This document shows, one piece after another, positions 9,126 to 55,966 of a stretch of DNA of 64,000 nt. The DNA comes from a virus, in IMG/VR virus record IMGVR_UViG_3300037246_001677, positions 56,171-120,170 of that record; one strand, written 5' to 3'. Every line of letters starts with the position of its first letter. The stretch's first letter is position 1. Position numbers and translations under genes: made by a program. Under the pieces are notes generated by a model, which saw nothing but the letters and a program-made list of their open reading frames with translations, was not told where the DNA came from and searched no databases.

Positions 9126-10526
9126 TTGGAAAGATTGGATAGTGATTTTCTGGAGAAGTTAATCATTAAAGGTATGATGACGGATAAGAATTTTCTTGTC
9201 TTAGTCACGAGTGTTTTCGAACCTAACTATTTCGATGATTCATCAGTCAGTCATATTTTTAAATTTTGTAGGGATTATGTAAGTGAGTATAGTGAAATCC
9301 CACAAATAGAAACAGTAATTAACTCTTTACCAGATGAATTTGAACAAAATGATATTAAAGAAATATTTGAAGAAATTGATACAATTGATTATGATATAGC
9401 TAGGAATTATAAACACTTAGTTGACCAAACAAATGACTATTTGAAAGAGCAAGCTGTTAAAAATGCCATAATAGAATCAGTTGATATTGTTGAAGATAAA
9501 GAAAGACGTCCGGAAATACGGCAAAAAATAGAAACTGCTTTGACTAAAGATATTAAGATTGACTTAGGTCTTGATTACTTTGGTGATCTCGGTGATAGGT
9601 TAAGGAGAATATTCACAGCATCTGATATAAAAATCCCAACCTATTATCCACAGTTTGATGAGTATATAAATGGTGGTTTTCCACCATTTACTTTGTCAGT
9701 ATTGACAGCTAGGATTCATGGGTTCAAATCGAATACCATGGCCAACTTTGCGGCGAGACAAGTACTACATGGACATAATGTAGTACTTATGACTTTAGAA
9801 ATGGCACAGGATGCTTTTGCGCAGAGGTTTGACTCGATATACACCGGACTTGATATAAACAGAATATATGTTTCAAATAATTATAAGAATAGATTAACAA
9901 GAAGTTTAGCTGAAGTAAAAGCACGAGAAGGAAGGGGATCATTATTAATAAAACAGTTTCCAACTGGTAACGCTTCGGTATTAGACTTCACAATTTATCT
10001 TCGTGAGTTATTGATAAGAGGCATAATGCCTTCAATAATTTATGTTGACTATATCAACCTTATGAAAACGGCTTATAAGGTTGAGAGAAATATGTATTCA
10101 GCAGTAAAGAGAATAGCCGAGGAGTTAAGAGCATTATCATTTACATTTGAAATTCCTGTTATTTCAGTAAGTCAGTTAAACAGAGAAGGATCATTTGTAG
10201 GGTTTGAAGAACTTGACTTCACTTATATTGCAGAAAGTTTGGGGCTTCCAGCCACAGCAGATTTTATGGCAATTTTAGGAACAGATGATGATGCAATGGT
10301 TTATCAAAATGAAATTCTATATAAGATAGTTAAGAACAGACTTGGCGGTAGAGTAGGTGAGGTAGATAGGCTTTACTATGACTCAAGAAGTCTTAAAATG
10401 TATGACTCAACAGAATTAGATTTATGGAATCAAGACGCAACAACATCTGGTGATGAAAGAAATGTAGCACCAACACCTAATCACAGAGAAGAAGCAAATA
10501 GAACAAGAGGAAGGAGAAATAGATAA
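9126..10526 (+). CDS. gp41: DnaB/gp41-like replicative helicase
   Basis: TLEMA, IKQFP, YVDYINLM, IAEELRAL, SQLNREG, AESLGLPATADF, VKNR motifs; TTG start after GGGGGA. Confidence 0.9.
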   Translation: MERLDSDFLEKLIIKGMMTDKNFLVLVTSVFEPNYFDDSSVSHIFKFCRDYVSEYSEIPQIETVINSLPDEFEQNDIKEIFEEIDTIDYDIARNYKHLVDQTNDYLKEQAVKNAIIESVDIVEDKERRPEIRQKIETALTKDIKIDLGLDYFGDLGDRLRRIFTASDIKIPTYYPQFDEYINGGFPPFTLSVLTARIHGFKSNTMANFAARQVLHGHNVVLMTLEMAQDAFAQRFDSIYTGLDINRIYVSNNYKNRLTRSLAEVKAREGRGSLLIKQFPTGNASVLDFTIYLRELLIRGIMPSIIYVDYINLMKTAYKVERNMYSAVKRIAEELRALSFTFEIPVISVSQLNREGSFVGFEELDFTYIAESLGLPATADFMAILGTDDDAMVYQNEILYKIVKNRLGGRVGEVDRLYYDSRSLKMYDSTELDLWNQDATTSGDERNVAPTPNHREEANRTRGRRNR

Positions 10527-17707: not shown

Positions 17708-18057
17708 TGTATTTTCTCCATTAACAAATCCATTTTCCTTTTTACATCACTTCTTTCTCGTTTAACATCTTGATAGTCCTGACGTAATTCTCGATCTTCT
17801 GGAAACCTTCTTAACTGTCTCCTTATTTCAAACATATCCTGTGTCAATTTATCATACATAAATTGATAAAATTTATAATTATTTTGTATTTGTTGATTTT
17901 GAATAGCACCAGCAACTTGAATTTCAACTCTTTCAATTTCCGTATCAACTTTTTTATTTGTCGCATAGTGATTTTCAAATGCCCACAAACCACCAAGTAT
18001 AGTAAAAATTGCGGTAATTATACTAGCAGCAGCTATTATAATTTTTTTTAAATTCAT
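17704..18057 (-). CDS. Single-TM coiled-coil membrane protein
   Basis: IIIAAASIITAIFTILGGLWAF followed by coiled-coil. Confidence 0.6.
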   Translation of the reverse strand: MNLKKIIIAAASIITAIFTILGGLWAFENHYATNKKVDTEIERVEIQVAGAIQNQQIQNNYKFYQFMYDKLTQDMFEIRRQLRRFPEDRELRQDYQDVKRERSDVKRKMDLLMEKIQ

Positions 18058-18284
18058 GTTACTCTGCCATATTTTACATGTACTTTATTTATTAAATCTT
18101 GTAACTCATCTTTTGTAAGTTCTTTAGTTCTTGTAGCTTTCTCCATTTTCTTCATGAGTTTGCTCAACTCATCTTTTACCTTTGCCCCCGCTACCAACCC
18201 TCTGTATTTGAACCAACTCTTTGACTTCTGTTTTCCAAATACACTTTCGGGTATAAGTTTATCTATTCTATCTAATAATTTCAT
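18054..18284 (-). CDS. Small hypothetical protein
   Basis: MKLLDRIDKLIPE; ATGA overlap. Confidence 0.6.
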   Translation of the reverse strand: MKLLDRIDKLIPESVFGKQKSKSWFKYRGLVAGAKVKDELSKLMKKMEKATRTKELTKDELQDLINKVHVKYGRVT

Positions 18285-18285
18285 T

Positions 18286-19722
18286 TTATCTCTCCACTAA
18301 CTCTTTGTCTTTCATGGCATTCGCAGCAGCCGCCATCATAGGTTTAAGCAAGTCATCTACATACCCCTTACCCCAGAAATTCAATCCTGAAATATTAGTA
18401 ATGTCTTTATGACCACCAGACCCAGCTTGTATCAAGTCCCAAAGAGGAATTTCAATCTTTCTTAGAATATTTTTTTGTTTGAATGATAATTTTTTATATG
18501 GTTTATTCATAATGTCTTGTTGCATGTCCCTATACTTACTTTTTTCTTTACCGAGACCACTCAAATTCTTTTCATATAGAGCCATCATATCTTTCCAAGT
18601 AAATCCCATGGCGTTTTCAATTTTCTTCTTTTCAATGTCCATTTCAAACATTCTCTTTGCTGATTCCATGCTAATCATCTTAGACTGTAATTTACTCTTA
18701 AATTTACCGAGTACATCTTTTTGTGCTATGTTACCTAAATGATAAGGATTATCTCTACCAATAAATGGATTTTTTGTTATTTGAAGTAAACCCATTGGCC
18801 AAGCAATTATTAAATATTGTGCATCTGGATTATTTTTAAATGGAGTATATCTATCATAGCCTTTGAACATTCCCCCGCCACCATACTGAACTATAGTATT
18901 ACCTATTATGACTTGAGCACCACTCTTTAGTCCTTTAACATCAGATACTTTTCCTTTACCCATTGACTTACCTTTTTGTTGTTTAACATAGTCAAACTTA
19001 CCAGCTTCAACATCTTCCGGTGTTTTATATCCATTCTTTACAGCAAGTTTCTTTATGACATTATACATTGATAACAATGAAGGTTCTGAATCCATAACAA
19101 GACTAGATAAAAATCCAGGCTTATTTTTATAAGCCAATGTTAATGAGTTTGTTGCATAACCCATCATATCTCTATTTACTTTAGCACCCTTTGATTTATC
19201 TAATCTAAACACTGCTCTCATAACATCATCTGGTGTCATATTATTTCTAGCAAAATCTGCTGAGTCAACAGTACTAATAACTTTTACATCTGCTGGTGGA
19301 AATAAGTCATTCGGTGAGAGTGTTTGTGAGATATGAGCTAAATTAGATGGCGTGTGTTTAAATGAAGTACTTGTTCCTTTTTCAACACCTACCTGTCCTT
19401 CATGGTGGTCTGTGTGAATATTCATGGTGGGTTTACCATGAGCAAAGTCAACCATGACTGCAAGTGTTTTATTCCTTGGTTTCGGTACTGCATACTCTTC
19501 ACCACCATATTGAATAGGATGAGCAGCAATTGTTTTAATTCCATATCTCTTTAAATAAGATTTCATGCCTATCGCAGAGGTAACACCATCAAGGTCTTTA
19601 TGAAAATATATTTCCGCTTCTTTATATTCTTTACTTAAATTTTTTATATTTCTAATACCGGACTCACTTACAATTTGATCCTGTTCTATAATCATATCAA
19701 TCTTACTTAATATATTCATCAT
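18286..19722 (-). CDS. DHH-family phosphoesterase-like protein
   Basis: YFHKDLDGVTSA, VDFAH, TDHH, GGGH-like GSGGHKDI; start at 19722 after AGGAG. Confidence 0.8.
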   Translation of the reverse strand: MMNILSKIDMIIEQDQIVSESGIRNIKNLSKEYKEAEIYFHKDLDGVTSAIGMKSYLKRYGIKTIAAHPIQYGGEEYAVPKPRNKTLAVMVDFAHGKPTMNIHTDHHEGQVGVEKGTSTSFKHTPSNLAHISQTLSPNDLFPPADVKVISTVDSADFARNNMTPDDVMRAVFRLDKSKGAKVNRDMMGYATNSLTLAYKNKPGFLSSLVMDSEPSLLSMYNVIKKLAVKNGYKTPEDVEAGKFDYVKQQKGKSMGKGKVSDVKGLKSGAQVIIGNTIVQYGGGGMFKGYDRYTPFKNNPDAQYLIIAWPMGLLQITKNPFIGRDNPYHLGNIAQKDVLGKFKSKLQSKMISMESAKRMFEMDIEKKKIENAMGFTWKDMMALYEKNLSGLGKEKSKYRDMQQDIMNKPYKKLSFKQKNILRKIEIPLWDLIQAGSGGHKDITNISGLNFWGKGYVDDLLKPMMAAAANAMKDKELVER

Positions 19723-20173
19723 CAAAATCTCCTGGATCTGGTTGTTCTGTACCAACTTCTGGATTATCACTCATGTCATGTGCTCTTGGTACAAAAGCAC
19801 CTAATATTTTATTAAATTTAACAGCTAATTTATTATCTGGTTCTTTCTGCTGCATAATAGTTATTGATTGTCCATAGTCTCCAACTGCCCTTGTTTGTCC
19901 CGAACCAATGACATTAACTGTGGTTCCACCAATATAACTACCACCAACAACAGACATTTCTACCAATAACTTATCTATTCTATTAATTATTTTTTCACTC
20001 ATGTTTATCCTCTTTTCTTTTGTTAGTGCTTTTTGGCATTTTACGCATATAGACTCGGCATTCTTCCGATCATCTTCCATAGCTTTACTACATTTCGCAC
20101 ATAGAGCTGATGCTGATTTAAAAACATCACCATATTCAAAATCCATATTAGCTACTTTAATATATTGAGTCAT
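19703..20173 (-). CDS. Hypothetical protein; N-terminal CxxC..CxxC part in frame with a likely internal start at 20002 (MSEKIINRIDKLLVE)
   Basis: AGAGGA SD precedes ATG 20002; CAKC/CVKC upstream. Confidence 0.55.
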   Translation of the reverse strand: MTQYIKVANMDFEYGDVFKSASALCAKCSKAMEDDRKNAESICVKCQKALTKEKRINMSEKIINRIDKLLVEMSVVGGSYIGGTTVNVIGSGQTRAVGDYGQSITIMQQKEPDNKLAVKFNKILGAFVPRAHDMSDNPEVGTEQPDPGDFDDEYIK

Positions 20174-20436
20174 TTATTCTTTCCTTTACCAGTGTCTTCC
20201 AACGGAACACATTCCTTTTTCATCGGTCACCACTTCTGGCCTTCTGGACATTCCTCGTCTTCCTCATGTACTATAGTTTCAGTACCAAGTTTATTTTTTC
20301 TTTTCCTTTTTCTATATTTCATACCAATAACATCAATATGTCCCTTGCCTGTATTCTTTGCTACATTACTGGTCATTGTGGCACCAGACTCATCGCCAAT
20401 TAATAATTTATTCATTCTATCTAATAGATTATCCAT
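20170..20436 (-). CDS. Putative 88-aa selenoprotein / UGA-readthrough protein (ECPEGQKW-U-PMKKECVP)
   Basis: In-frame TGA 20227-20229; frame continues 18 codons to a TGA overlapping the next ATG; SECIS-like hairpin downstream. Confidence 0.6.
20192..20210 (-). promoter_or_regulatory. Candidate bacterial-type SECIS hairpin GUGUUCC-GUU-GGAAGACAC
   Basis: 7-bp bulged stem, G-first apical loop 23 nt after the UGA. Confidence 0.45.
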
Positions 20437-20447
20437 TTTTATGTCCC

Positions 20448-20912
20448 TTATTTACTTGCTAGCATTTTTGAAAATTTCGACTTAGGTTTAACTATCTTCT
20501 CTACTTTTTTTTCTACTAACTTTTTTGGTTTAATATCTAGCTCTGTAAGAATCATAGCTTTAATATTAGGTTTAATTCTTTCTTCAATTTCTTCTGTATC
20601 TTGAATTACCGCCTCAACTTTAATTGGCTTTTCAATTCTGATTGTATCCGACCATGGTGTTAAATAAACATCATCTGCAATAATCTCAAGTTTTGCAGTC
20701 ATATTTTGATTATCTTTTAATTCTGAAATAATAACATTCTCCAAAGGTGGTATTTCAACAAATATTTTATTATCTACAATTTTGATTGGAAAACCATATT
20801 CAATACCTTCATGAGTCAATCTAACTGCTCCTTTAATGTCTTCCATCAGAACACCTGAGATTTCAACACCAAATTTAATTTGTTTTGATCTTTGTACATT
20901 TAATGTTATCAT
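20448..20912 (-). CDS. Hypothetical protein
   Basis: 154-aa ORF, ATGA-coupled. Confidence 0.6.
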   Translation of the reverse strand: MITLNVQRSKQIKFGVEISGVLMEDIKGAVRLTHEGIEYGFPIKIVDNKIFVEIPPLENVIISELKDNQNMTAKLEIIADDVYLTPWSDTIRIEKPIKVEAVIQDTEEIEERIKPNIKAMILTELDIKPKKLVEKKVEKIVKPKSKFSKMLASK

Positions 20913-21106
20913 AATATTTCCACCTCTATAATATTAATTATAGGTTTTTGTTTTGTTTTTGACTCAACATTTCTTATGAGAATAACTGGTTTCTTTTTTA
21001 CTTCTTCGTAATATCCACCGCCTCCGCCACCTATGCCTTGTCCATCAACAACACCAGTACCGATTGATGGATTAAAATATCCCATAGTAGCTATTGCAAC
21101 TGACAT
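20909..21106 (-). CDS. Small Gly-rich hypothetical protein
   Basis: AAGGA SD; MSVAIATMGYF...GGGGGG. Confidence 0.55.
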   Translation of the reverse strand: MSVAIATMGYFNPSIGTGVVDGQGIGGGGGGYYEEVKKKPVILIRNVESKTKQKPIINIIEVEIL

Positions 21107-21118
21107 TATTTATCCTTT

Positions 21119-24100
21119 TTATACTTTTATTTGCTTCCACGTTATAAATTTACCAGGTCCGCTTCCTGGTGCAGTTATCTCATATGTTCCAATCACATCA
21201 TTTGCAGTACCAGTGCTACTTGGGTCTGAGTAGATACGAACCCTTGCTGATGTTAGGTTTGTATCACCATCATATACTGGATTATCAATATAAATATTTT
21301 CGTGCATTAGACCAAGTGCTTTTCTTAATACCAAACCAAAAGTTTCATCAACCCCGTATCCAGATGTTGGTTCGCTCCACACAGCTACTGCTATATCTTT
21401 AGCCGTTATAACTTCTACTGAAGTTACAGCACAATAATCGAGATAAAGAATATGATTAGCATTATATGATGTAATATGGTGTCTTATTCTAATTCTAACT
21501 TCGTTGTTATTAGTCCTATCTATATGCCTTTCATAGTACTCATGTGTATATTCAGCATTAGAAACAAAACCACCTGGCATGTACTGATCTACTAAATTTT
21601 CCCATACATCGGCTTCGTAATTGTATGCATCTAAATCCATATAGTGAGTATTTGATGGAGTACCAGTATATCTACCAAATGTTGTAAAGACACCGGCTCT
21701 GTCTTCGTCCGGAATATTAAAAATCAATTCAGCTGTTATTCCAGTTACAGCATTTTCTTGAATCTGCCAATAAACACCATCTTTTATAAAAGTACTTGTA
21801 TAAGTGTTGGTTTCTGTTCCAAATATAGCTCCACCACTTACCGCAGTAAAGAATGAAGTTGAAGTACTTGCGGCAATATCTGCTTTTGTTGCCAACTCTG
21901 CGCCATAAGTTCCAACTATTGTGTGATTTGCTAACTCTTCATTCCACACAGCATTTGTAATGGAAGTATTAGTAAGTGCCGCTTGTAAAACAAGACAATT
22001 CGGACCACTTTCATCAATAATTCTTGTAAGACCAGCAATAACAATTGTTCCAGAAACACAAGTACTATCGACTCTAACTGTACCATTTAAGTCAAATGAT
22101 GATACGTTCGTAGAAGTCTTTCCCAACACAGCATATTGACCACGACCTCTTATCATATTAAAATTACTATCAGATATATTTATATTAATAAATGTTAATG
22201 GATCGGTTACAAATGTATCACACTCTGTCATGTAATTATTACCACCAGCTATAAAATTGACATCGTTTGTAGTTAATGAATTTTTTATACCACCAGATAA
22301 GTTATTAATTTCACCTAAAACACAAAAAGTAAATCTTGCCGCGCCACTCAATGTACCTGATACCGTTAAGTCATTAAAATATGTTAATTCTGTTTTAGGA
22401 TTTACTAATGTTACAGAATTTCCTAAGCTTCTATCTGCATCAAAAGTATATCCACTAATGTCCTCACCACCTGAAATAGTCAAAGAACCAATTATATGAA
22501 AATGTGATAATTCATAATTAGATGATAATGTTAAAGCATCTGCTAATGAATTTACAGGGGATTGTCTAATACCAGCAGGATAAACAGTACCCGGTGTTCC
22601 ATTCACTACATCAATATAAATAGCATTATCATATGACTGCTGTAATAAAGCATGTCCAGTTGTTTCATCGTCCGCATGGTTAGCCAATGGCTCATCCCAT
22701 ACTGCTGATGCTATTGACTCTTTAGTTTCACCGCGAGCTGGAATCATAACATAAGCAGAATTTAAATCTGGAACTATGTTCCAGTCAACATCAACAGTAG
22801 CAACCTTAGTTGTTCCGTCATATGCTGTAATAGTTCTAACTTGGTCTTCACCTGTACCAGACCTAATAAATACTCGTTGCCTAATATAATTACCAGATAC
22901 GGGCGATGCTAAAGTATTTAATGTAATTGTACTAAGTGTTCCACCTCGTGCTAGTCCTTCATTTACATGCTCTCTGCCTGCCCATGCAGTTATTACATAT
23001 TTGCTAATTCCAGTAATTGGATATACTTTCCAATCTCTATCGACAGTTATAACTCTATTTGTACCATCATACTGAAAAATTCCTCTTGTCTGTCCATCAC
23101 CCGGACCATCAGTAATTGTTACTAATGCCGGGTCATAAGCACCATCTACACTACTTGCAAAATTATCTAGTTCAAGTTGGTTTACACCATTACCACTTCC
23201 AGCAACAGTACCAGTAAGAACAACAGACGCTGCAAGGTCTTTTAATTTTTTTCCTGTTGTGCCATCACTACCATGTCCGTCTATTTGTTCATCCCATACA
23301 AAATCCGCAATATTTTCATTACTAATAAAACCTTCTATATCAACATTGCAATTTGGTCCTGAATTATCCGATTCAATTTGACCAACACCCAATAACTGAA
23401 TACTTCCAGATACACATGATGAGTCAATTATTATATTACCAGAGCTAGTATTTAAAACAGTTCTGTTTGTACCAGTTTTACCCTTTAAATTAATATTACC
23501 AGTCCAGTTAGACATGTTTAAATCTGCTGTTCCAATTACTATTTCTGGTTCACTACCAGCCGAACCACCTGCGGTTCCTTGAATAATTGTAGCCCATATT
23601 CCGAGATTTATTTCCGCATTATCTCCAAAAGCAACATTGTTCATAATACCAGAAAAGTTATCAAAATCAAGTACTGAACAGTCATTTAAAAGAATAGCAT
23701 CTCCATTTATAAGCTCACCGGTTATATTTAAGTTTTTAAATACTGAGTTAGCCGCCGAACAGCCTGTTGTCAATGTTACTGTTGTACCCAATATACCAAT
23801 TGTCTCTATGGATTTCTCAGAAATATTATCATCTGCATCAACAGTTACGCTAGACAACAATGAAATTCTCTTTATCCTTCTACCATTAGCAATAAGTAGA
23901 GCGTCTCCTATATTGTTTACTGGTTTTGCTTTTGTACCAACACCAAAATCAGTTCCTGAAAATAAAGAATCTTCATCAACATAAATTTGGTCACCATATA
24001 AAAGAACTTGAAGTGCCCCTGCCGCAGATTTTGGTGAGTAACCAGATACTTGGTCAGACCACACCGAATTTCTCACATCATCATAGTAATTTTCATTACC

Positions 24101-24334
24101 GGCATAAGTATATCTTTCATTAAATGAAAGTACTACACCACCATCACACCTAATAGCATAATCTTTAGTAGAATCATATAATGTATAGTCATACTTATAA
24201 TGGCCATCACCTACATCACTCATCGCAGCATCAGTAATTACAAGAGAATTATCAAATAAATCTCTTATTCTTATTATTGCTGATAGTCCTGATGTTGGAA
24301 CGCCACTATTTGTAAAAAATGCAGTTATAATCAT
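21119..24334 (-). CDS. Large virion structural (tail fibre/baseplate-associated-like) protein with internal duplications
   Basis: 1071 aa, G/T/S/N-rich beta composition, five I/V-xx-VW[DNS][ED] repeats, duplicated domains. Confidence 0.6.
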   Translation of the reverse strand: MIITAFFTNSGVPTSGLSAIIRIRDLFDNSLVITDAAMSDVGDGHYKYDYTLYDSTKDYAIRCDGGVVLSFNERYTYAGNENYYDDVRNSVWSDQVSGYSPKSAAGALQVLLYGDQIYVDEDSLFSGTDFGVGTKAKPVNNIGDALLIANGRRIKRISLLSSVTVDADDNISEKSIETIGILGTTVTLTTGCSAANSVFKNLNITGELINGDAILLNDCSVLDFDNFSGIMNNVAFGDNAEINLGIWATIIQGTAGGSAGSEPEIVIGTADLNMSNWTGNINLKGKTGTNRTVLNTSSGNIIIDSSCVSGSIQLLGVGQIESDNSGPNCNVDIEGFISNENIADFVWDEQIDGHGSDGTTGKKLKDLAASVVLTGTVAGSGNGVNQLELDNFASSVDGAYDPALVTITDGPGDGQTRGIFQYDGTNRVITVDRDWKVYPITGISKYVITAWAGREHVNEGLARGGTLSTITLNTLASPVSGNYIRQRVFIRSGTGEDQVRTITAYDGTTKVATVDVDWNIVPDLNSAYVMIPARGETKESIASAVWDEPLANHADDETTGHALLQQSYDNAIYIDVVNGTPGTVYPAGIRQSPVNSLADALTLSSNYELSHFHIIGSLTISGGEDISGYTFDADRSLGNSVTLVNPKTELTYFNDLTVSGTLSGAARFTFCVLGEINNLSGGIKNSLTTNDVNFIAGGNNYMTECDTFVTDPLTFININISDSNFNMIRGRGQYAVLGKTSTNVSSFDLNGTVRVDSTCVSGTIVIAGLTRIIDESGPNCLVLQAALTNTSITNAVWNEELANHTIVGTYGAELATKADIAASTSTSFFTAVSGGAIFGTETNTYTSTFIKDGVYWQIQENAVTGITAELIFNIPDEDRAGVFTTFGRYTGTPSNTHYMDLDAYNYEADVWENLVDQYMPGGFVSNAEYTHEYYERHIDRTNNNEVRIRIRHHITSYNANHILYLDYCAVTSVEVITAKDIAVAVWSEPTSGYGVDETFGLVLRKALGLMHENIYIDNPVYDGDTNLTSARVRIYSDPSSTGTANDVIGTYEITAPGSGPGKFITWKQIKV

Positions 24335-24690
24335 TAATACGGTCCACTTCCACTTGTCGCAATTGTTGTTAGCTGTTTTTTAGCATTATAAGTAAACAAT
24401 TTTGTTAGTGTTTCACTATCTGATATTCTAGTTAAATCTGTTCTAACTAATTGTTTACTAGGGTTATATGCCAAATCTTTATTAAATAACTTAGTTGTTT
24501 TTATACTATCTATCCATATCCCAATATTTGTCAATTGTTTCTTAGCATTATAGGTAAGTTCTTTATAATAGTATAGATAAATGGATTTAAATTCTAACTC
24601 CATTTCATTTGCAAGCTTTTCTAATACTGAATATGCACCGGTTCCACTTGCTCCAGCAGAAGTTGTTTGTTTAGTTACAATAACACCCAT
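24334..24690 (-). CDS. Small protein with three YD/RHS-like repeats
   Basis: KELTYNAKKQLT, KDLAYNPSKQLV, KLFTYNAKKQLT. Confidence 0.55.
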   Translation of the reverse strand: MGVIVTKQTTSAGASGTGAYSVLEKLANEMELEFKSIYLYYYKELTYNAKKQLTNIGIWIDSIKTTKLFNKDLAYNPSKQLVRTDLTRISDSETLTKLFTYNAKKQLTTIATSGSGPY

Positions 24691-33578: not shown

Positions 33579-34679
33579 TTACCAACCTCCTTTTATAGTT
33601 TCAGCTATATACTGACGATGGCTTTCTGTTAACCACCAACCTACTGGTATACAAATCATATCATTAATAACTGATTCTAAACCAGGTAATTCTTTACTAT
33701 ACTTTCTTGTAAAAGTATGCTTATCATTTCGTTCATGTACTCTTGAAACAGAAATTCCTTTTGTTCCCATCATATGAGCAAACGAAGTTCTGTCCTCTAC
33801 CAATAATGTATAAATCCAATAAGATGAAAGCCTATCTGTTTTCGTTTGAATTACTTTTACTCCAGGAACACCAAATAATTCTTGGTTATAGTACTTAGCA
33901 TTAGCTCTTGCAATTTCAACATTTTCCAATGCATCATCAAAATTACCAAGACCAACTGTAGCACAAACATCGTTCATGTGATACTTATATCCCCACTCTA
34001 CAATGTCTTCCTCGCATCTCATATCTTTTCGAGGACTTTCTCTATCAATTCCATACCATCTTAGTAACTTACCTCGCTCATAATCCTTTATGTATTTTAA
34101 GAAGAGTGCTCCTCCATCTACTGTAGTCAAGTGCTTAATTGCTTGAAAACTCATCATTGAATAATCAGAATATACACAACTACCCACTACACATCCCTTA
34201 TAAACAGAACCAAAAGCGTGAGCACCATCCTCTATAATTCTTATATCATGTTTAGAAGCTATTTCATAAATTTCCTTCATGTCACATGGGTAACCACCCC
34301 AGTGTACCACCATTATTGCTTTAGTTCTCTCAGTAATGCTTGACTCAACACTTCGTGGGTCAATATTTAAATCATTTGGCTTGATGTCAGCCCAGACAAT
34401 ATCCGCTCCATTCATAAGAATAGGCATGTTTGTCGCAGTGCAAGTCAGTGGGGTTGTTATGACTTCATCACCCGGACCGACACCAGCCAATCTCAAAGCA
34501 AGGCTCAAACCATGAGTCCCCGCTGACAACGCTAGTACTTTATCATTCTCAAATTGTTTTCCTAATCTTTTTTCAAATTCAACTACTTTAGGACCTTGTC
34601 CTATCCATCCAGAATATATAACTGAATTTAATATTGGAGTGACTTCATCACTCATAAATACTTTAAATAAAGGTATCAT
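33579..34679 (-). CDS. DegT/DnrJ/EryC1/StrS PLP-dependent sugar aminotransferase
   Basis: GPKVVEFE, GPGDEVIT, VHWGG, IEDGAHAFG, SFQAIKHLTTVDGG. Confidence 0.93.
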   Translation of the reverse strand: MIPLFKVFMSDEVTPILNSVIYSGWIGQGPKVVEFEKRLGKQFENDKVLALSAGTHGLSLALRLAGVGPGDEVITTPLTCTATNMPILMNGADIVWADIKPNDLNIDPRSVESSITERTKAIMVVHWGGYPCDMKEIYEIASKHDIRIIEDGAHAFGSVYKGCVVGSCVYSDYSMMSFQAIKHLTTVDGGALFLKYIKDYERGKLLRWYGIDRESPRKDMRCEEDIVEWGYKYHMNDVCATVGLGNFDDALENVEIARANAKYYNQELFGVPGVKVIQTKTDRLSSYWIYTLLVEDRTSFAHMMGTKGISVSRVHERNDKHTFTRKYSKELPGLESVINDMICIPVGWWLTESHRQYIAETIKGGW

Positions 34680-35308
34680 TTCGTCCTCCTTAAATATCCT
34701 TTCGGATTGAATGTCATTATATATTTTTCACACCAGTACTGTGGTTCGAAGTAATCTCTTGTAGATAAAAACCACTCTACTGCTTCATATGGTCCTTTCC
34801 CATGTTCCCATTCCACAGGGTGTCCGCTCACATGAGTATCTTCCACTATAATATATGATCCAACCGGCACAATTTCCTCATATAATTCAAGTTCCTTACA
34901 TACGTTGTAATAAGAATGCCATGAGTCAAGTATGACTAAGTTTCTTTTACCTTTACATAAGTATTCTACATCTCTATATATTATTTCATTAGTACTTGAC
35001 CCACTTAAAAATGTTATTCTATCAGACCATTCATGTTGTGAAATATCAACAGGTTTTAATTTCTGTTCAATATCAATAGTAATTACTTTTCCTTCACCAA
35101 GTAACTCACAAATACCAGCATAAAATAAAGCCGATCCTCCATGTCCAGTTCCAGTTTCAATTATATATTCGGGTCTCAACTGATATATAATTTCTTGAAT
35201 TACCATAGCATCGAAAGGTAATTTCCACATAGGTATTCCGAACCAATAACTCTGCTCCCACAATCTTGACTGTTCATAAAATTTATGATACTCATCTACA
35301 CATCTCAC
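34676..35308 (-). CDS. CmcI-family (cephalosporin hydroxylase / rhamnosyl O-methyltransferase-like) protein
   Basis: WFGIPMWKLPFD, IIETGTGHGGSA, ILDSWH, YIIVEDT, FNPKGYL. Confidence 0.88.
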   Translation of the reverse strand: MRCVDEYHKFYEQSRLWEQSYWFGIPMWKLPFDAMVIQEIIYQLRPEYIIETGTGHGGSALFYAGICELLGEGKVITIDIEQKLKPVDISQHEWSDRITFLSGSSTNEIIYRDVEYLCKGKRNLVILDSWHSYYNVCKELELYEEIVPVGSYIIVEDTHVSGHPVEWEHGKGPYEAVEWFLSTRDYFEPQYWCEKYIMTFNPKGYLRRTK

Positions 35309-35310
35309 AA

Positions 35311-36327
35311 TTAATAATCCTCCAAATTTTTCTTCATCCTTTCAATTCTAATTTCTCTTGGTACTTCATATGGGTCTTGATCCCACCACATCCTTATATA
35401 CCGTTCATCACCAGTTAAGTAATAATTAACTAAAGTATTCTTATCATGGTCACGGTAATATAATTTAATATCTCTCAAGTCAAAGTACTTTACATCTAAA
35501 GGCTCTTTGTGTTTACTACACAGCCAATTTTTTTCAGATTCAAGATTTCTAAAACCCAGAACATCTCTCCAAGTACTTGGTCCACCTTCTTCACAATATG
35601 TATCATGGCGACCTTTAAATTCACCAGTTGTATAATATGGTTGAACTGGAGCATGGTCCCACTTTATATTATGTTCCTTTGTCCATAGTTGAATAAGATA
35701 CTCAGGACTAAAAGAAACAGTACTAGAATCAGGCATCATATCAAGAATAAAATCTATAAAATCAAAATACGCATCTCTTTTAAATACCATAGAACATGTA
35801 TGAATAAATTCCCATCCATCCGTTTCACGTGTTTGACTTTGACCAGACATGAAATCATTATCACCAAGCATTTCAATAATTTCATTTACTCCTTCCGGTC
35901 TATCCCATACACAATCACCATTTGCAGTGAATATGTACTTTATATTCTTGTACTGTCTTAGAATTGACGAAGCATATATCTGTAACCATATCCATCCATG
36001 CCTTTTATGATGTCCACCCCAAGTATAATGTTTAGTAAACCACATGTGAGCTAGATACCATATATCTGGAAATGGAAAACCTCTTCTCTTATCTGTATCT
36101 GGTGTAACTATTCTACTATCATATGCACCAACTATAAACATATCCTCAATTTTTCTATACTGCTGTAAGGCGTATTTCATATACGGCATATGTCCCATAT
36201 GACAAGTAAAAATCAATCCAATCTTAGCATTCAGAGGAAACAAGTTTACTTCACTCATTATTTTATCTTGTGCTTTATCTGGTCTATCAACTTTATGTAA
36301 TGCTAACATTTCCTCATAACTTCTCAT
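35311..36327 (-). CDS. Putative GT-A-fold glycosyltransferase (paralogue 3)
   Basis: IGLIFT, GAYD, FTANGDCVWDRP, IHTCS, SPEY; closely parallels 30939..31982. Confidence 0.55.
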   Translation of the reverse strand: MRSYEEMLALHKVDRPDKAQDKIMSEVNLFPLNAKIGLIFTCHMGHMPYMKYALQQYRKIEDMFIVGAYDSRIVTPDTDKRRGFPFPDIWYLAHMWFTKHYTWGGHHKRHGWIWLQIYASSILRQYKNIKYIFTANGDCVWDRPEGVNEIIEMLGDNDFMSGQSQTRETDGWEFIHTCSMVFKRDAYFDFIDFILDMMPDSSTVSFSPEYLIQLWTKEHNIKWDHAPVQPYYTTGEFKGRHDTYCEEGGPSTWRDVLGFRNLESEKNWLCSKHKEPLDVKYFDLRDIKLYYRDHDKNTLVNYYLTGDERYIRMWWDQDPYEVPREIRIERMKKNLEDY

Positions 36328-46603: not shown

Positions 46604-46930
46604 ATGAATATAATAGAAAAAATAGATAAACTATTAGTCGGTGAAGGAATTTTCAAACAAGCAACGCAAGCAGCAGCCGATTTTATAGGTATTCAAATAG
46701 ATGCATTAGACCACTATCTTGCACAAAAAAGAATTGGTCAGCATGTAAGTATGACTTGGGATAAGAAGAAAATTAAAGAACTTAAGAAAATGACAAAAAA
46801 GTTGGAAAAAGATTTGAAAAAAGAACTTGGTCCAGATTGGAGAAAAGCAAAACCAGAAGATTTAAGCAAACAGAGTAGTGATCTTTTTTGGAAAGTATTA
46901 AAAATGCGTAGCGATATTTATGGGTATTAA
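46604..46930 (+). CDS. Hypothetical protein
   Basis: MNIIEKIDKLLVGE. Confidence 0.6.
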   Translation: MNIIEKIDKLLVGEGIFKQATQAAADFIGIQIDALDHYLAQKRIGQHVSMTWDKKKIKELKKMTKKLEKDLKKELGPDWRKAKPEDLSKQSSDLFWKVLKMRSDIYGY

Positions 46931-53550: not shown

Positions 53551-53976
53551 ATGGAATTAAACAGAAATAATTTATCCGATGCCTTTGATATGGATGGCAT
53601 AGAAAGTGAAGTGGATCGTCTTACCCTTGTTTCAGACACTGACCCGGAAGAAGTACTTAAAGAAAATATAGACAGAGCGAATAGAATATTAGATAGGGTA
53701 GAACAAGAATTAGAAAGTGGAAATTTTACAGCAAGAATGGTAGAGGTTGCTGGAGCCATTTTAAATACCGTAACGAACTCGAGTAAGGAAATAATGGCTA
53801 ACATTAACTATAAAAAATATTTACAAATTCGCGATTCTATGGTAAAATATAAGTATGATGAATTGGAATCCAAAAAAGCAAAATTCCGTTCTCCAACGAG
53901 TCAAAATATTATCGTCTCAAATAGAGAAGATATAATGAAACTACTAAACGGAGAATTAAAACAAATTGAAAAATAA
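53551..53976 (+). CDS. Probable terminase small subunit (gp16-like)
   Basis: ARMVEVAG and NIIVSNREDIMKLL resemble T4-like TerS; start ATG 53551 after AGGAGG. Confidence 0.6.
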   Translation: MELNRNNLSDAFDMDGIESEVDRLTLVSDTDPEEVLKENIDRANRILDRVEQELESGNFTARMVEVAGAILNTVTNSSKEIMANINYKKYLQIRDSMVKYKYDELESKKAKFRSPTSQNIIVSNREDIMKLLNGELKQIEK

Positions 53977-54001
53977 AAAACTAAAAGAAAGGAAAACTGT
54001 T

Positions 54002-55966
54002 ATGTTTGATAAGAACAACGATTTTATGGAGGTCATCCTTGGTCAGCAAAAAGGAACTGGTATCAAAAAGTGGGAGGGAACGACCATTGATTATTTGGCT
54101 GAAGTAGAAAAAAGACCAGAAATTTGCAATTTTGCCCCTGGTCGAATCTATAATATGATTATGAAGGTGGGCACAGAGCAAGTATCAGACGAGTTAAAAA
54201 CTAAAGGTTATGAGGATTTAGTTAAATATAATTTCTTCAAGAAAAAAATCTTCGGTACTCTTGAGCCGATTCATGATATGATGAAATTTATGAAAGCCGC
54301 TGCAAGGAGAACAGAAACTGGTAAACGAATCTTTATCATGGTTGGTCCTGTTTCTTCGGGTAAATCAACTATCGCTGCCTTAATCAAAAGAGGACTTGAA
54401 AAGGACTGTACTCCAAAATATGCAATCTCAGGATGTCCAATCCACGAGGAACCTCTTCACTTGATTCCAGAAGATGATCGACCATACTGGGAGGATCGAC
54501 TTGGTATAAAAATCGAGGGCCATCTTTGTCCGGTTTGTACTCAAATGTTGGATGAAAAATACACAAACAAAGATGGAGTAATTCAATGGCATGAGGTACC
54601 AACCGAAACAATTAGAATCAGTGAACAACGAAGGATTTGTATCGGTACATTCCAACCTAGTGATCCAAAATCACAGGACATTACTGAACTTATTGGTCGA
54701 GTTGATATGACTAAGATGGCTAGATATGGTGAAACCGATCCAAAAGCTTATAAGTTCGATGGTGAGCTTCAAGTTGCAAATGGTGGTATGATTGAATACA
54801 TCGAAATTCTAAAAGCAGATATTAAATTTCACTATATTCTTATCACCGCCGCTCAAGAGCAAGTTATCAAGGCCCCTGGTTTCCCACAAATGTACATTGA
54901 TACATTGATTATGAGTCATACAAACCAAACAGAATTTGACTCATTCAAATCAGACAAAAAGAACGAAGCTCTACATGATAGGATGTATAAAGTAGAGGTA
55001 CCATGGAATCTAAGAGTAGATGATGAAATAAAGATTTATGAAAAAATGATTGATGAATCTGACTTTAGAAATATCCATATCGCCCCTGGAACATTGAGAG
55101 TTGCCGCAGAGTTTGCAGTACTTTCAAGATTGAGAAAGTCAACCAGAGTTAGCAATAAAATCACCAAGATGAAACTCTACAACGGTGAAATTCCAGTCGA
55201 GTTCAAAAAGACCGACATTGATATTAAGAAATTAAGAGAAGAAGGAAGAGAACTAGGTGAAGGTATGAGTGGTATCTCTCCAAGATTTGTTGTTAATGCT
55301 CTTAACTTAGCACTTGGTGCAAAAGAAGAAAGGAAGTGTATAAATCCGATTGACATGATTAGATCACTTAGAGATAACTTTAACCATCACATTGGTATTC
55401 CAGATGAAGATAAAGAAATCTTTATGAGTATATTAACTGGTAACAAAGAGTCGGTAGCATCCGAGTATAAAGATTGGGCAAAGAAAGAAGTCAACATGGC
55501 TTTCTTATGGGCATATGATGAACAAGCCCAGGAACTATTTTACAGGTATATGATAAATGCCGAAGGTTATTGTAAAAATGAACAAATCATTGATTCAGTA
55601 ACTGGTGAATATCATAACCCAGATGAAAAAGTCATGAGGTCCATCGAAGAACTAATCGGAGTACCAATGGAATCAAGAAAAGAATTTAGAAATGGTATTT
55701 TCGTTTATAAATCAGACTTCTTAGGTAGAGGCAAAGACTTTACTTTCAAGGACTACGATCCGTTGAGAGAAGGTATTGAGAAAAAGTTGATGGGTGATTT
55801 GAAAAATGTTGTATCACTTTCAATTGCTGACTCATCTGCCACAAATCCGAAGTCCAAAAAGAGAAGAGAGGTGGCCCTGGAAACCTTGAAAGAAAAAGGA
55901 TATTGTGATAAATGTGGTTCAATGCTTCTTAGCTTTATAGGTGAGGTATTACGTAAGGAAGATTAA
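54002..55966 (+). CDS. prkA: PrkA/YeaG-family AAA+ serine kinase
   Basis: MVGPVSSGKST, CPIHEEPL, FQPSDPKSQD, ANGGMIEYIEILK, NEALHDR, EGMSGISPRF. Confidence 0.93.
   Translation: MFDKNNDFMEVILGQQKGTGIKKWEGTTIDYLAEVEKRPEICNFAPGRIYNMIMKVGTEQVSDELKTKGYEDLVKYNFFKKKIFGTLEPIHDMMKFMKAAARRTETGKRIFIMVGPVSSGKSTIAALIKRGLEKDCTPKYAISGCPIHEEPLHLIPEDDRPYWEDRLGIKIEGHLCPVCTQMLDEKYTNKDGVIQWHEVPTETIRISEQRRICIGTFQPSDPKSQDITELIGRVDMTKMARYGETDPKAYKFDGELQVANGGMIEYIEILKADIKFHYILITAAQEQVIKAPGFPQMYIDTLIMSHTNQTEFDSFKSDKKNEALHDRMYKVEVPWNLRVDDEIKIYEKMIDESDFRNIHIAPGTLRVAAEFAVLSRLRKSTRVSNKITKMKLYNGEIPVEFKKTDIDIKKLREEGRELGEGMSGISPRFVVNALNLALGAKEERKCINPIDMIRSLRDNFNHHIGIPDEDKEIFMSILTGNKESVASEYKDWAKKEVNMAFLWAYDEQAQELFYRYMINAEGYCKNEQIIDSVTGEYHNPDEKVMRSIEELIGVPMESRKEFRNGIFVYKSDFLGRGKDFTFKDYDPLREGIEKKLMGDLKNVVSLSIADSSATNPKSKKRREVALETLKEKGYCDKCGSMLLSFIGEVLRKED

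What the first reader, a model, noticed from the sequence alone, without database searches (positions are those of the whole stretch)
20170..20436. Candidate phage selenoprotein: in-frame UGA at a Cys-like position with a SECIS-like hairpin
Seen: the 69-aa ORF 20227..20436 stops at TGA in the context E-C-P-E-G-Q-K-W-[TGA]-P-M-K-K-E-C-V-P-L..., and the frame continues 18 more codons to a second TGA (20170-72) that overlaps the ATG of the next gene (ATGA), the coupling style used throughout this genome; ending at the first TGA instead leaves an unusual ~54-nt gap. Starting 16 nt after the UGA the mRNA can fold GUGUUCC-GUU-GGAAGACAC (bulged 7-bp stem, G-first loop 23 nt from the UGA), with possible lower pairing ACCG/UGGU. 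Established: bacterial Sec insertion uses a hairpin immediately 3' of UGA with a G in the apical loop, bound by SelB. Inference: C-P-x-G-x-x-W-[C/U]-P-x-x-x-x-C looks like a Cys-cluster in which one Cys is encoded as Sec; the protein also carries the N-terminal head-targeting-like tag, so it could be a virion selenoprotein and would imply a Sec-utilising host.
Basis: partly seen in the sequence, partly recalled or inferred. Interest (0 to 1): 0.85.

Follow-up and report, generated by a model that had tools for sequence, protein, structure and literature searches.

The report
Likely selenocysteine codon in phage gene
A small gene of this uncultured marine-sediment phage reads through an internal UGA "stop" that related phages keep at the same codon, where other relatives have cysteine, and an RNA hairpin of the bacterial selenocysteine-insertion type always follows, so it most likely encodes a selenoprotein.

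Summary
On the minus strand a 69-codon ORF ends at TGA (20229-20227). The frame runs 18 more codons to a second TGA (20172-20170) that overlaps the next gene's ATG.

The window's hairpin alone is no better than chance (z -0.10). The case rests on comparison:
- 17 distinct related phage sequences keep TGA at exactly this codon, inside a short module C-P-x-G-x-x-[W/Y/F]-UGA-x5-C-[V/I]-P.
- The sequence after the TGA evolves as coding sequence.
- All 17 have a hairpin whose loop starts 23-24 nt after the UGA and carries G-U at its 5' side.
- Module copies with Cys or Asp at that codon (14 at DNA level) lack the hairpin.
- The UGA module occurs in three different protein contexts, like a portable cassette with a built-in SECIS.

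Best reading (about 0.72): selenocysteine inserted by the host's SelB machinery.

Weak points:
- The host is unknown.
- The half-complete phage record carries no sel genes and no tRNA-Sec.
- The stability criterion fails in 6 of 17 sequences, the window's included.
- Three database proteins show Trp at the site, and I could not see their DNA.

This scan has flagged other phage selenocysteine candidates on other DNA, but not this family. My paper searches found no phage selenoprotein.

The parts
20173..20436 (-). Full recoded gene: 88 codons with UGA as codon 70 (MDNLL...QKW-U-PMKKECVPLEDTGKGKNK)
   Evidence: The frame is conserved in relatives.
20227..20229 (-). In-frame UGA, proposed Sec codon (codon 70)
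   Evidence: TGA sits at the homologous codon in 17 distinct sequences. Relatives have Cys or Asp codons there.
20192..20211 (-). SECIS-like hairpin: stem UGU.UUCC / GGAA.ACA with loop GUU (20203-20201), beginning 23 nt after the UGA
   Evidence: A homologous hairpin is present in 17 of 17 TGA copies and absent in 14 of 14 Cys/Asp copies.
20203..20250 (-). Cys-rich mini-module C63-P-E-G-Q-K-W-U70-P-M-K-K-E-C76-V-P78
   Evidence: The same module occurs in three protein contexts.
20389..20436 (-). N-terminal motif MDNLLDRMNKLLIGDE, shared with neighbouring small genes
   Evidence: The motif is also found at window 20002, about 19722 and 18284 (minus strand) and at 46604 (plus strand).
20170..20172 (-). 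Second TGA, the real stop, overlapping the ATG of the next gene (ATGA)
   Evidence: In relatives the extended ORF also ends at or within 16 nt of the next start.
19703..20173 (-). Next gene (MTQYIKV...), translationally coupled. It has an internal Met at 20002 with its own KIDKLL motif and a strong Shine-Dalgarno-like AGAGGA upstream.
20448..20912 (-). Upstream 154-aa gene. Its homologues in more distant phages carry the UGA module at their own C-terminus.
   Evidence: 35% identity, E 5e-24 to L006

Best explanation
The gene at 20173-20436 (minus strand) is one 88-codon gene. Its codon 70, UGA, is read as selenocysteine. The hairpin that starts about 18 nt after the UGA, with loop G-U 23 nt downstream, acts as a bacterial-type SECIS. 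It would recruit the host's SelB.GTP.Sec-tRNA(Sec) to the ribosome paused at UGA. Ribosomes that fail to insert Sec terminate and give the 69-aa form.

Shown here: conservation of the UGA, conservation of the downstream reading frame, Cys at the same site in relatives, and strict co-occurrence of the hairpin with UGA.

Inferred: Sec rather than another residue, and the use of host machinery.

The UGA and its hairpin lie inside a roughly 16-residue module (C-P-x-G-x-x-aromatic-U-P-x-K-x-x-C-V-P). The module's own C-V-P-V-G codons form the hairpin, so module and SECIS travel together. It is found in three protein contexts in related phages.

Function, inferred with low confidence: an exposed selenol between two cysteines in a small, very basic protein. 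It could form a selenylsulfide or diselenide cross-link that persists in the reducing cytoplasm, or bind a metal. The protein may be delivered into the capsid via its N-terminal KIDKLL motif.
For: 1. TGA sits at the same codon in 15 copies from the window plus 14 loci. After further pattern scans this rises to 17 distinct 63-nt sequences. The same DNA pattern finds 17 viral contigs with TGA, 0 with TGG and 2 with TGY.

2. The sequence downstream is coding.
- The first codon after TGA is CCG/CCA/CCT in 12 of 16 sequences, showing third-base wobble.
- The second codon is hydrophobic, with T at position 2 in 14 of 16.
- Length differences are whole codons, and the extended ORFs end at or next to the next gene's start.
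- In L002/L004/L007/L030 the frame runs 85-96 codons past the TGA with dN/dS 0.13-0.29.
- P0045 joins the two halves in one uninterrupted ORF.

3. Cys occupies the site in relatives.
- Proteins: P0007, P0015, P0016; P0018, P0019, P0023, P0027, P0035.
- DNA level: L003 and L016, the L030 twin copy and L053.

4. All 17 TGA copies have a hairpin with a 5-8 bp stem, a 3-6 nt loop, G in loop position 1 or 2 followed by U, and spacing of 23-24 nt. This meets criteria (i)-(iii) of the bSECIS model quoted in PMC13188914 (passages).

5. For 16 TGA copies the mean MFE of the 30-nt segment is -6.4 kcal/mol (mean z -3.0). For 11 Asp copies it is -1.75 (z +0.4) and for 3 Cys copies -1.1 (z +0.6).

6. The L030 Cys twin encodes nearly the same peptide (CVPVGSG) with the stem broken.

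7. Stem pair 3 is A-U in 11 sequences, U-A in 5 and C-G in 1, at synonymous sites of the Val and Gly codons.

8. Three different 3' arms (tetraloop, hexaloop and triloop classes) keep the pairing even where the downstream peptide differs.

9. TGA is otherwise an ordinary stop: it ends 23 of 83 greedy ORFs in the window and 2-4 of 9-13 in each of nine relatives' loci.
Against: - The window's hairpin alone is not exceptional: z -0.10, with 84 of 200 shuffles as good.
- bSECIS criterion (iv), MFE <= -7.5, is met by only 11 of 17 sequences and not by the window (-6.6).
- Formal covariation is thin. In the 8-sequence tetraloop alignment, 1 of 6 pairs changes on both sides, and 19 of 500 shuffles reach the observed score.
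- No selA, selB or selD was found in the phage record, and no match to the tRNA-Sec model reached its cut-off (best 41 bits against 47; that hit is a tRNA-Ser). The record is only about 50% complete by CheckV. Five relatives' records gave no tRNA-Sec either. No tRNA with anticodon UCA was found in the genome or in any fetched locus.
- The host is unknown, so its Sec trait is untested.
- The homologous position is Asp in 11 of 14 non-TGA copies, so a Cys-like residue is not generally required there.
- Three database proteins show Trp at the site (P0042; P0044 and P0046). I could not see their DNA.
- No selenium measurement exists.
Confidence: 0.72

Rival explanations
1. Programmed or leaky UGA read-through by a standard tRNA (most plausibly tRNA-Trp, which the phage itself encodes). 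This would give a short and a long isoform. The hairpin would slow termination rather than bind SelB.
For: - Three database proteins carry Trp exactly at the site and run on through the module (P0042; P0044 and P0046).
- The base after UGA is C in 15 of 17 sequences. I recall, untested here, that UGA-C is a weak terminator in E. coli.
- The phage encodes tRNA-Trp(CCA).
- The window hairpin is weak.
- No Sec machinery was seen.
- The Asp paralogues show that the site tolerates non-Cys residues.
Against: - The DNA of the three Trp proteins was not seen. The protein collection holds gene calls read with TGA=W (stated in the look-up of encoding contigs description), so their W may be a printed TGA.
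- The matched DNA pattern with TGG finds 0 viral contigs, against 17 with TGA.
- Sense replacements verified at DNA level are Cys (L003, L016, L030, L053), not Trp.
- The +4 C is explained by the conserved Pro codon, which the Cys-type W-C-P copies share.
- Loop G-U and CCA-GUU are conserved at synonymous sites. This points to sequence-specific recognition.
- I know of no hairpin-stimulated read-through in bacteria other than SECIS (recalled, not searched).
Confidence: 0.15
2. The first TGA is the real stop. The conserved downstream stretch is a non-coding RNA element (for example a hairpin controlling translation of the next gene) plus a relic of former coding sequence.
For: - Standard gene calls end there: 11 of 14 homologous proteins end at ...KW.
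- Gaps of 50 nt or more are not rare in this genome (11 of 79).
- In the hexaloop class the 3' arm lies just before the next gene's start and contains AGG.
- In type-iii genes an internal Met could start the downstream domain separately. P0047 and P0048 are called that way.
Against: - Codon-type conservation follows directly after the TGA: Pro third-base wobble and a hydrophobic second codon.
- Length changes are whole codons only, and the extended ORF's stop is coupled to the next start in every class.
- The second half of the module (x5-C-V-P) is clearly translated in the 14 Cys/Asp copies.
- P0045 is a continuous fusion of both halves.
Confidence: 0.05
3. The phage or its host uses a code in which TGA is a sense codon (table 4 or 25). 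Alternatively, the TGA is a sequencing error or a dead allele.
For: None beyond the in-frame TGA itself.
Against: - TGA ends 23 of 83 greedy ORFs in the window, many as ATGA overlaps, and 2-4 ORFs in each of nine relatives' loci.
- Only this one gene shows the feature.
- 17 distinct sequences from independent assemblies share the TGA.
Confidence: 0.02

Closest known systems
Bacterial selenoprotein genes with an in-ORF SECIS read by SelB (prototype E. coli fdhF; consensus bSECIS model as quoted in PMC13188914 and PMC8659212)
   Same: - In-frame UGA with Cys in homologues.
- A hairpin immediately 3' of the UGA.
- Small apical loop with G followed by U in its first positions.
- UGA-to-loop spacing of 23-24 nt, within the 16-37 nt range.
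   Different: - The gene is carried by a phage, with no sel genes in the record held.
- The product is a tiny basic protein with no recognisable oxidoreductase fold.
- The site is Asp in most paralogues.
- Hairpins are weak: 6 of 17 are above -7.5 kcal/mol.
- In one class the second stop lies in the hairpin loop, only 9 codons after the UGA.
- UGA plus SECIS behave as a portable module found in three protein contexts.
Poxvirus selenoproteins (molluscum contagiosum and fowlpox glutathione peroxidases; PMC8310308, passages read)
   Same: A virus-encoded gene that depends on the host's Sec machinery. In fowlpox the SECIS lies in the coding sequence.
   Different: Those are eukaryotic viruses with captured cellular GPx genes and eukaryotic SECIS elements. 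This is a bacteriophage gene with a bacterial-type hairpin and no cellular homologue found.
Programmed UGA read-through in phage Qbeta (coat/A1 protein) (recalled, not read here)
   Same: A phage gene in which a UGA is passed by a share of ribosomes to give a C-terminally extended product.
   Different: As I recall, Qbeta needs no downstream hairpin and inserts Trp. Here a position-specific hairpin with a conserved G-U loop accompanies every UGA, and DNA-verified sense replacements are Cys.
C-terminal half of the chitin-binding peritrophin-A domain, CBM_14 (PF01607), and similar C-P-x-G-x-x-aromatic-[D/N]-x5-C repeats
   Same: Relatives with several tandem copies of the module (P0038, P0032, P0027) score on CBM_14 profile positions about 25-49 of 53.
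   Different: The window's protein gives no Pfam hit. Only a half-motif is shared. In that motif the position of the UGA is normally Asp/Asn, not Cys.
Other phage selenocysteine candidates noted earlier by this scan on other DNA (e1-5362015, e1-5998498, e1-5778751, e1-6055852, e1-6084864, e1-6071520, e1-5948320, e1-372161)
   Same: The same pattern is reported: conserved in-frame UGA, Cys in relatives and a SECIS-like hairpin, in uncultured (often marine, T4-like) phages.
   Different: Those notes are AI reports that I did not test.

Membership tests
Bacterial-type selenoprotein gene (UGA + bSECIS + SelB) | In-frame UGA conserved at the same codon among homologues | tested here: met
   17 distinct sequences. 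The matched pattern finds 17 viral contigs with TGA and 0 with TGG.
Bacterial-type selenoprotein gene (UGA + bSECIS + SelB) | Cys-containing homologues aligned at the UGA | tested here: met
   Proteins P0007, P0015, P0016 and P0018, P0019, P0023, P0027, P0035. DNA: L003 and L016, L030 twin, L053. However, 11 of 14 non-TGA copies have Asp.
Bacterial-type selenoprotein gene (UGA + bSECIS + SelB) | Protein-coding conservation continues 3' of the UGA | tested here: met
   Codon-pattern conservation, dN/dS 0.13-0.29 over 85-96 codons, and the continuous fusion P0045.
Bacterial-type selenoprotein gene (UGA + bSECIS + SelB) | bSECIS criteria (i)-(iii): 3-9 nt loop and 4-16 bp stem; G in the first two loop positions (mostly followed by G/U); 16-37 nt from UGA to loop | tested here: met
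   17 of 17: loops of 3-6 nt, stems of 5-8 bp, G then U, spacing 23-24 nt. Criteria come from the PMC13188914 Fig. 2 legend.
Bacterial-type selenoprotein gene (UGA + bSECIS + SelB) | bSECIS criterion (iv): MFE <= -7.5 kcal/mol | tested here: inconclusive
   11 of 17 in a 63-nt fold. The window's own is -6.6, so it is not met there. The length over which the model computes MFE is not known to me.
Bacterial-type selenoprotein gene (UGA + bSECIS + SelB) | selA, selB, selC (tRNA-Sec) and selD available in the cell | not testable with these tools
   The host is unknown. The phage record (about 50% complete) has none. Five relatives' records have no tRNA-Sec over the cut-off.
Bacterial-type selenoprotein gene (UGA + bSECIS + SelB) | Selenium shown in the protein (75Se labelling or mass spectrometry) | not testable with these tools
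   Experiment needed.
Programmed stop-codon read-through (Qbeta A1 type) | UGA decoded by a standard near-cognate tRNA; relatives carry that residue's codon at the site | tested here: inconclusive
   Three proteins have W at the site, but their DNA was not seen. The TGG pattern finds 0 viral contigs. DNA-verified replacements are Cys.
Reassigned genetic code (NCBI table 4 or 25) | TGA is sense throughout the genome and not used as a stop | tested here: not met
   TGA ends 23 of 83 ORFs in the window, and 16 of 79 same-strand gene junctions are ATGA overlaps.
CBM_14 / peritrophin-A domain (PF01607) | Match to the whole domain above Pfam's cut-off | tested here: not met
   The window protein has no Pfam hit at E <= 0.1. 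Only multi-repeat relatives score, and only on the C-terminal half of the profile.
T4-type capsid-targeting sequence cleaved by the prohead protease | Shared N-terminal peptide ending in a protease site, removed in the virion | tested here: inconclusive
   The motif M..LL.KIDKLL recurs in 5 ORFs, four of them consecutive. In relatives it also occurs internally. Cleavage and packaging are not testable here.

The most novel reading that the evidence does not exclude
Phages of marine sediments carry a self-contained, portable selenocysteine cassette of about 45 nt. The codons of a tiny Cys-x6-Sec-x5-Cys module themselves fold into the SECIS, so recombination can graft a Sec residue onto unrelated phage proteins. 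Three contexts are seen here. The resulting small basic selenoproteins would be packaged virion or internal proteins. Their selenol would make cross-links that survive the reducing cytoplasm. This would be the first bacteriophage selenoprotein family, and a natural minimal Sec tag.
Probability: 0.45. Interest if true: 0.9.

Novelty: new variant of a known kind. Interest (0 to 1): 0.8.

Why it matters
If the UGA is read as Sec, this is a selenoprotein encoded by a bacteriophage. My searches found no such report. Neither of two prokaryotic selenoproteome reviews contains the words phage or virus (PMC9312934 and PMC13188914). The viral recoding review PMC8310308 names only two poxviruses (passages read).

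Consequences if true:
- Phages would be tapping a costly, specialised host decoding system.
- Such a gene marks its host as Sec-using, which is a handle on host assignment for uncultured sediment phages.
- Standard gene callers would be systematically truncating such genes: 11 of 14 database homologues end at the UGA.
- The very compact module with a built-in SECIS could be a natural template for short Sec tags.

Tried and rejected
**Code reassignment.** Rejected: TGA is a common stop here.

**Sequencing error or pseudogene.** Rejected: 17 distinct sequences share the TGA.

**Phage-borne opal suppressor or tRNA-Sec.**
- ARAGORN finds 35 tRNAs in the 120-kb record, none with anticodon UCA.
- The second-best hit to the tRNA-Sec model (C1:29865-29955, 37.3 bits, below the cut-off) is a long-arm tRNA-Tyr(GUA) by its anticodon loop.
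- ARAGORN finds none with anticodon UCA among 78 tRNAs in 49 fetched loci.
- I could not judge a Hirsh-type change in the phage tRNA-Trp.

**Database scans of the window.**
- An Rfam gathering scan gave 0 matches.
- Megablast of 18000-24500 against the phage collection gave no match.
- tblastn of the protein gave only 4 chance-level hits.
- PHROGs and Pfam gave nothing for the gene and little for its neighbours. The aminotransferase at 33579-34679 is a DegT-type sugar enzyme, not a selenocysteine lyase.

**Other UGA-plus-hairpin genes.** A crude scan of the whole 120-kb record gave 10 candidates, none looking like coding sequence. The filter (perfect stem of 5 bp or more) also missed the window's own site, so this is not a real negative.

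**Covariance model.** Model R1 mis-aligned the triloop class (window, L010) and picked up four unrelated hits and the L030 Cys twin. I therefore counted pairs in a script instead.

**Host.**
- The PrkA gene's nearest Atlas clusters are mostly Pseudomonadota, with one Thermodesulfobacteriota cluster. This is a weak hint only.
- The two genome-contig hits are short contigs (2.2 and 1.6 kb) in archaeal MAG bins, most likely mis-binned phage fragments.

**Sequencing runs.**
- No RNA holder was listed.
- Laying four runs' contigs left 20204-20371, including the TGA, without cover, so nothing can be said from them.
- The run holding the full stretch is labelled marine sediment metagenome and may be the source. 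The small-share runs prove nothing about habitat.

**Trp-type proteins.** The DNA of P0042, P0044 and P0046 could not be obtained. The search for related loci with P0042 and P0046 found only other relatives. L048 and L049 are unrelated giant-virus-type repeats.

**Not run.** Structure prediction, complex prediction and fold search. The supplementary files of papers were closed and not consulted; they might list viral hits in selenoproteome surveys.
Full report
**What is there**

On the minus strand, ORF 20227..20436 encodes 69 aa ending ...EECPEGQKW and stops at TGA 20229-20227. The same frame continues PMKKECVPLEDTGKGKNK to a second TGA at 20172-20170. That second TGA overlaps the ATG of the next gene (19703-20173) as ATGA.

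Taken alone it is unremarkable. MFE is -6.6 kcal/mol, z is -0.10, and 84 of 200 shuffles fold as well. A 53-nt gap would not be odd either, since 11 of 79 same-strand gaps are 50 nt or more.

The window is the last 64 kb of a single 120,170-bp virus record. The record has 34.6% G+C and is about 50% complete by CheckV. ARAGORN finds 35 tRNA genes in it. One further tRNA-Tyr appeared only through a sub-threshold hit to the tRNA-Sec model.

TGA is an ordinary stop in this genome. It ends 23 of 83 greedy ORFs, and 16 of 79 same-strand junctions are ATGA overlaps.

**Relatives**

A protein search with the 88-aa read-through sequence gave 14 proteins among 15 candidates.
- Eleven, including the window's own, end exactly at ...[K/R]W.
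- Three (P0007, P0015, P0016) read W-C-P/D... and continue through ...C-V-P.

I therefore fetched DNA with the search for related loci, which gave 9 viral and 10 metagenome loci.

A motif scan of these loci plus the window found 15 copies of C-P-x-G-x-x-[W/Y/F]-*-x5-C-[V/I]-P in which the stop is TGA every time. It also found 10 copies with GAT (Asp) and 2 with TGC/TGT (Cys).

A degenerate DNA pattern built from these copies matched:
- 17 viral contigs;
- 2 short contigs filed under archaeal MAG bins;
- 0 viral contigs when TGA was replaced by TGG;
- 2 viral contigs when TGA was replaced by TGY.

After removing duplicates there are 17 distinct 63-nt TGA sequences.

**The TGA is translated through**

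Directly after the TGA, the 16 aligned sequences show a coding pattern:
- codon 1 is CCG/CCA/CCT in 12 (Pro, third-base wobble), CAA in 3 and GAG in 1;
- codon 2 has T at its second position in 14 (Met/Val/Leu/Ile);
- codon 3 is AAA/AAG/AGA in 15;
- the Cys codon, five codons on, is invariant.

Tails after the module differ in length by whole codons (9, 18, 20, 21, 22, 24, 29 and 85-96 codons). Each ends at, or a few bases before, the next gene's start as ATGA, TAATG, or a stop followed by 1-16 nt and then ATG.

In L002, L004, L007 and L030 the frame runs 85-96 codons beyond the TGA into a conserved domain, with pairwise dN/dS of 0.13-0.29 (6 pairs). An internal Met could in principle start that domain separately, and P0047 and P0048 are called that way. 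But P0045, from a relative, joins the same N-terminal and C-terminal domains in one uninterrupted ORF.

The second half of the module (x5-C-V-P) is plainly translated in the 14 Cys/Asp copies.

**The hairpin goes with the TGA**

All 17 TGA sequences fold into a hairpin in the same register:
- stems of 5-8 bp;
- loops AGUU (8), AGUUUA (6), GUU (2) and GUA (1);
- G in loop position 1 or 2, followed by U, in 17 of 17;
- 23-24 nt between the UGA and the loop.

These values satisfy criteria (i)-(iii) of the consensus bacterial SECIS model as quoted in the Fig. 2 legend of PMC13188914. That model asks for a 3-9 nt loop, a 4-16 bp stem, G in the first two loop positions (mostly followed by G or U), and 16-37 nt spacing (passages). 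G and U of the apical loop are also the named SelB contacts or conserved positions in the E. coli element (PMC8659212, passage).

Criterion (iv), MFE <= -7.5 kcal/mol, is met by 11 of 17 sequences in a 63-nt fold and not by the window.

The 30-nt segment holding the hairpin differs sharply between copy types:

| Copy type | n | Mean MFE (kcal/mol) | Mean z |
|---|---|---|---|
| TGA | 16 | -6.4 | -3.0 |
| Asp | 11 | -1.75 | +0.4 |
| Cys | 3 | -1.1 | +0.6 |

None of the 14 non-TGA copies, nor L053, has the hairpin.

The neatest control is L030. That phage has a UGA copy with the hairpin and, 311 nt upstream, a Cys copy. The Cys copy encodes almost the same peptide (...W-C-P-V-Q-K-K-C-V-P-V-G-S-G) with the stem broken.

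Covariation proper is limited. Stem pair 3 is A-U in 11 sequences, U-A in 5 and C-G in 1, at the third positions of a Val and a Gly codon. Pair 5 is G-C (8), G-U (4), U-A (3) or A-U (2). In the 8-sequence tetraloop alignment, 97.6% of cells pair, 1 of 6 pairs changes on both sides, and 19 of 500 shuffles reach the score.

More telling, three different 3' arms keep the pairing although the peptide after C-V-P differs (V-G-T-G..., V-stop, L-E-D-T...). In the hexaloop class the second stop (TAG) lies in the loop.

**A portable module**

The UGA module sits in three contexts:
- (i) After the motif M-D-x-L-L-D-K-I-D-K-L-L-I-G-D... and an N-T-A-K-G-H-I-D-V-I-G segment. This is the window, L010, L001, L011-L015 and L045.
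- (ii) At the C-terminus of homologues of the window's upstream 154-aa gene. These are L005, L006, L008 and L009. The window's 154-aa ORF and L006 share 35% identity, E 5e-24.
- (iii) Between an M-P-x-P-x-P-K...A-I-C-L-x-x-W domain and a C-terminal domain. These are L002, L004, L007, L021 and L030.

Cys versions exist in contexts (i) and (ii): P0007, P0015, P0016, P0018 and P0019 in (i), and the L030 twin in (ii).

The exhaustive protein search (27 hits) shows that the module belongs to a wider class of C-P-x-G-x-x-aromatic-[D/N/C]-x5-C repeats. Tandem copies in P0038, P0032 and P0027 score on the C-terminal half of Pfam CBM_14. The window's protein itself has no Pfam or PHROG hit.

**Mechanism proposed**

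The UGA is read as selenocysteine by host SelB with Sec-tRNA(Sec), recruited by the hairpin. Failures terminate and give the 69-aa form.

Shown here: UGA conservation, downstream coding, Cys alternation, and the hairpin-UGA association with bSECIS geometry.

Inferred: the identity of the inserted residue and the use of host factors.

I recall, without having read it here, that in E. coli the hairpin need not itself be translated provided its distance from the UGA is kept. That would allow the class in which the ORF ends 9 codons after the UGA.

The protein's function is unknown. Residue 70 lies between two invariant cysteines in a very basic small protein. My guess is a selenylsulfide or diselenide cross-link, or a metal site.

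The N-terminal K-I-D-K-L-L motif recurs in four consecutive genes plus one other. I did not test that, and in relatives the motif also lies inside proteins.

**What speaks against the reading**

- No selA, selB, selD or tRNA-Sec in the half-complete record, and none in five relatives' records. No UCA-anticodon tRNA anywhere fetched.
- Host unknown.
- Weak hairpins in this A+T-rich genome.
- Asp at the site in most paralogues.
- Three database proteins with Trp at the site (P0042, P0044, P0046). I could not fetch their DNA. The protein collection is stated to include calls read with TGA=W, so their W may be a printed TGA. The zero count for the TGG pattern fits that but does not prove it.
- Laid contigs did not cover the site.

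I put selenocysteine at about 0.72, read-through with a standard residue at 0.15, and a true stop at 0.05.

**Novelty**

Three full-text searches listed no paper on a natural bacteriophage selenoprotein. Only titles and abstracts of the listed papers were seen.
- 41 papers held all terms, 20 listed.
- 179 papers, 20 listed.
- 1,324 papers, 15 listed, none relevant.

The prokaryotic selenoproteome reviews PMC9312934 and PMC13188914 contain the word 'phage' and the word 'virus' zero times. The viral recoding review PMC8310308 names two poxviruses as the viruses with selenoprotein genes (passages).

This scan has already reported at least eight other phage Sec candidates on other DNA. None is this family. 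Those notes are untested AI reports and were not used as evidence.

Noticed in passing
G000:C1:43166-43239 (outside the window, 12.9 kb before it): A phage tRNA with anticodon CUA (amber suppressor; ARAGORN labels it tRNA-Pyl) among 35 tRNA genes. TAG is the rarest stop in the window (6 of 83 greedy ORFs).
   Followed up: no
G000:C1:29865-29955 (outside the window): A 91-nt tRNA missed by ARAGORN's default run. It was found as a sub-threshold hit (37.3 bits) to the tRNA-Sec model. Its anticodon loop reads GUA, so it is a long-variable-arm (bacterial-type) tRNA-Tyr, which argues for a bacterial host.
   Followed up: partly
window 20436, 20002, about 19722 and 18284 (minus strand) and 46604 (plus strand): Five ORFs begin with M-(x)-x-L-L-x-K-I-D-K-L-L, four of them consecutive. 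Three are followed by [L/I]-x-E, which I recall as the T4 prohead-protease site type. In relatives the same motif also lies inside longer proteins.
   Followed up: partly
window 19703-20173 (minus strand): This ORF looks like two units in one frame. The first is a 56-aa N-terminal part with two C-x-x-C pairs (weak double-zinc-ribbon hits, E 0.05). The second starts at an internal Met at 20002, preceded by AGAGGA, and carries its own KIDKLL motif and the V-V-G-G-S-Y...G-S-G-Q-T-R segment. In distant relatives that segment is fused directly to the Asp-type module.
   Followed up: no
L030 (minus strand), module copies at reverse-complement positions 10312 and 10623: One phage carries a Cys copy (no hairpin) and a UGA copy (hairpin) of the same module 311 nt apart, in adjacent genes. 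This is a natural matched control.
   Followed up: yes
L048 and L049 (giant-virus-labelled contigs): A protein with a long P-K-E-P-K-Q repeat followed by two C-P-E-G-K-E-I-N-P-V-T-K-R-C-V modules. This is the same short Cys motif class in a quite different virus group.
   Followed up: no
window 33579-36327 (minus strand): A sugar-modification set: a DegT/DnrJ/EryC1 aminotransferase (E 2e-79) and, upstream, a CmcI-type rhamnosyl O-methyltransferase (E 9e-54). An 893-aa protein with a weak glycosyltransferase hit lies nearby.
   Followed up: no
window 53966-55966 (plus strand): A full-length PrkA/YeaG-type kinase gene in the phage. Its nearest Atlas clusters are mostly Pseudomonadota, with one Thermodesulfobacteriota cluster.
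   Followed up: partly
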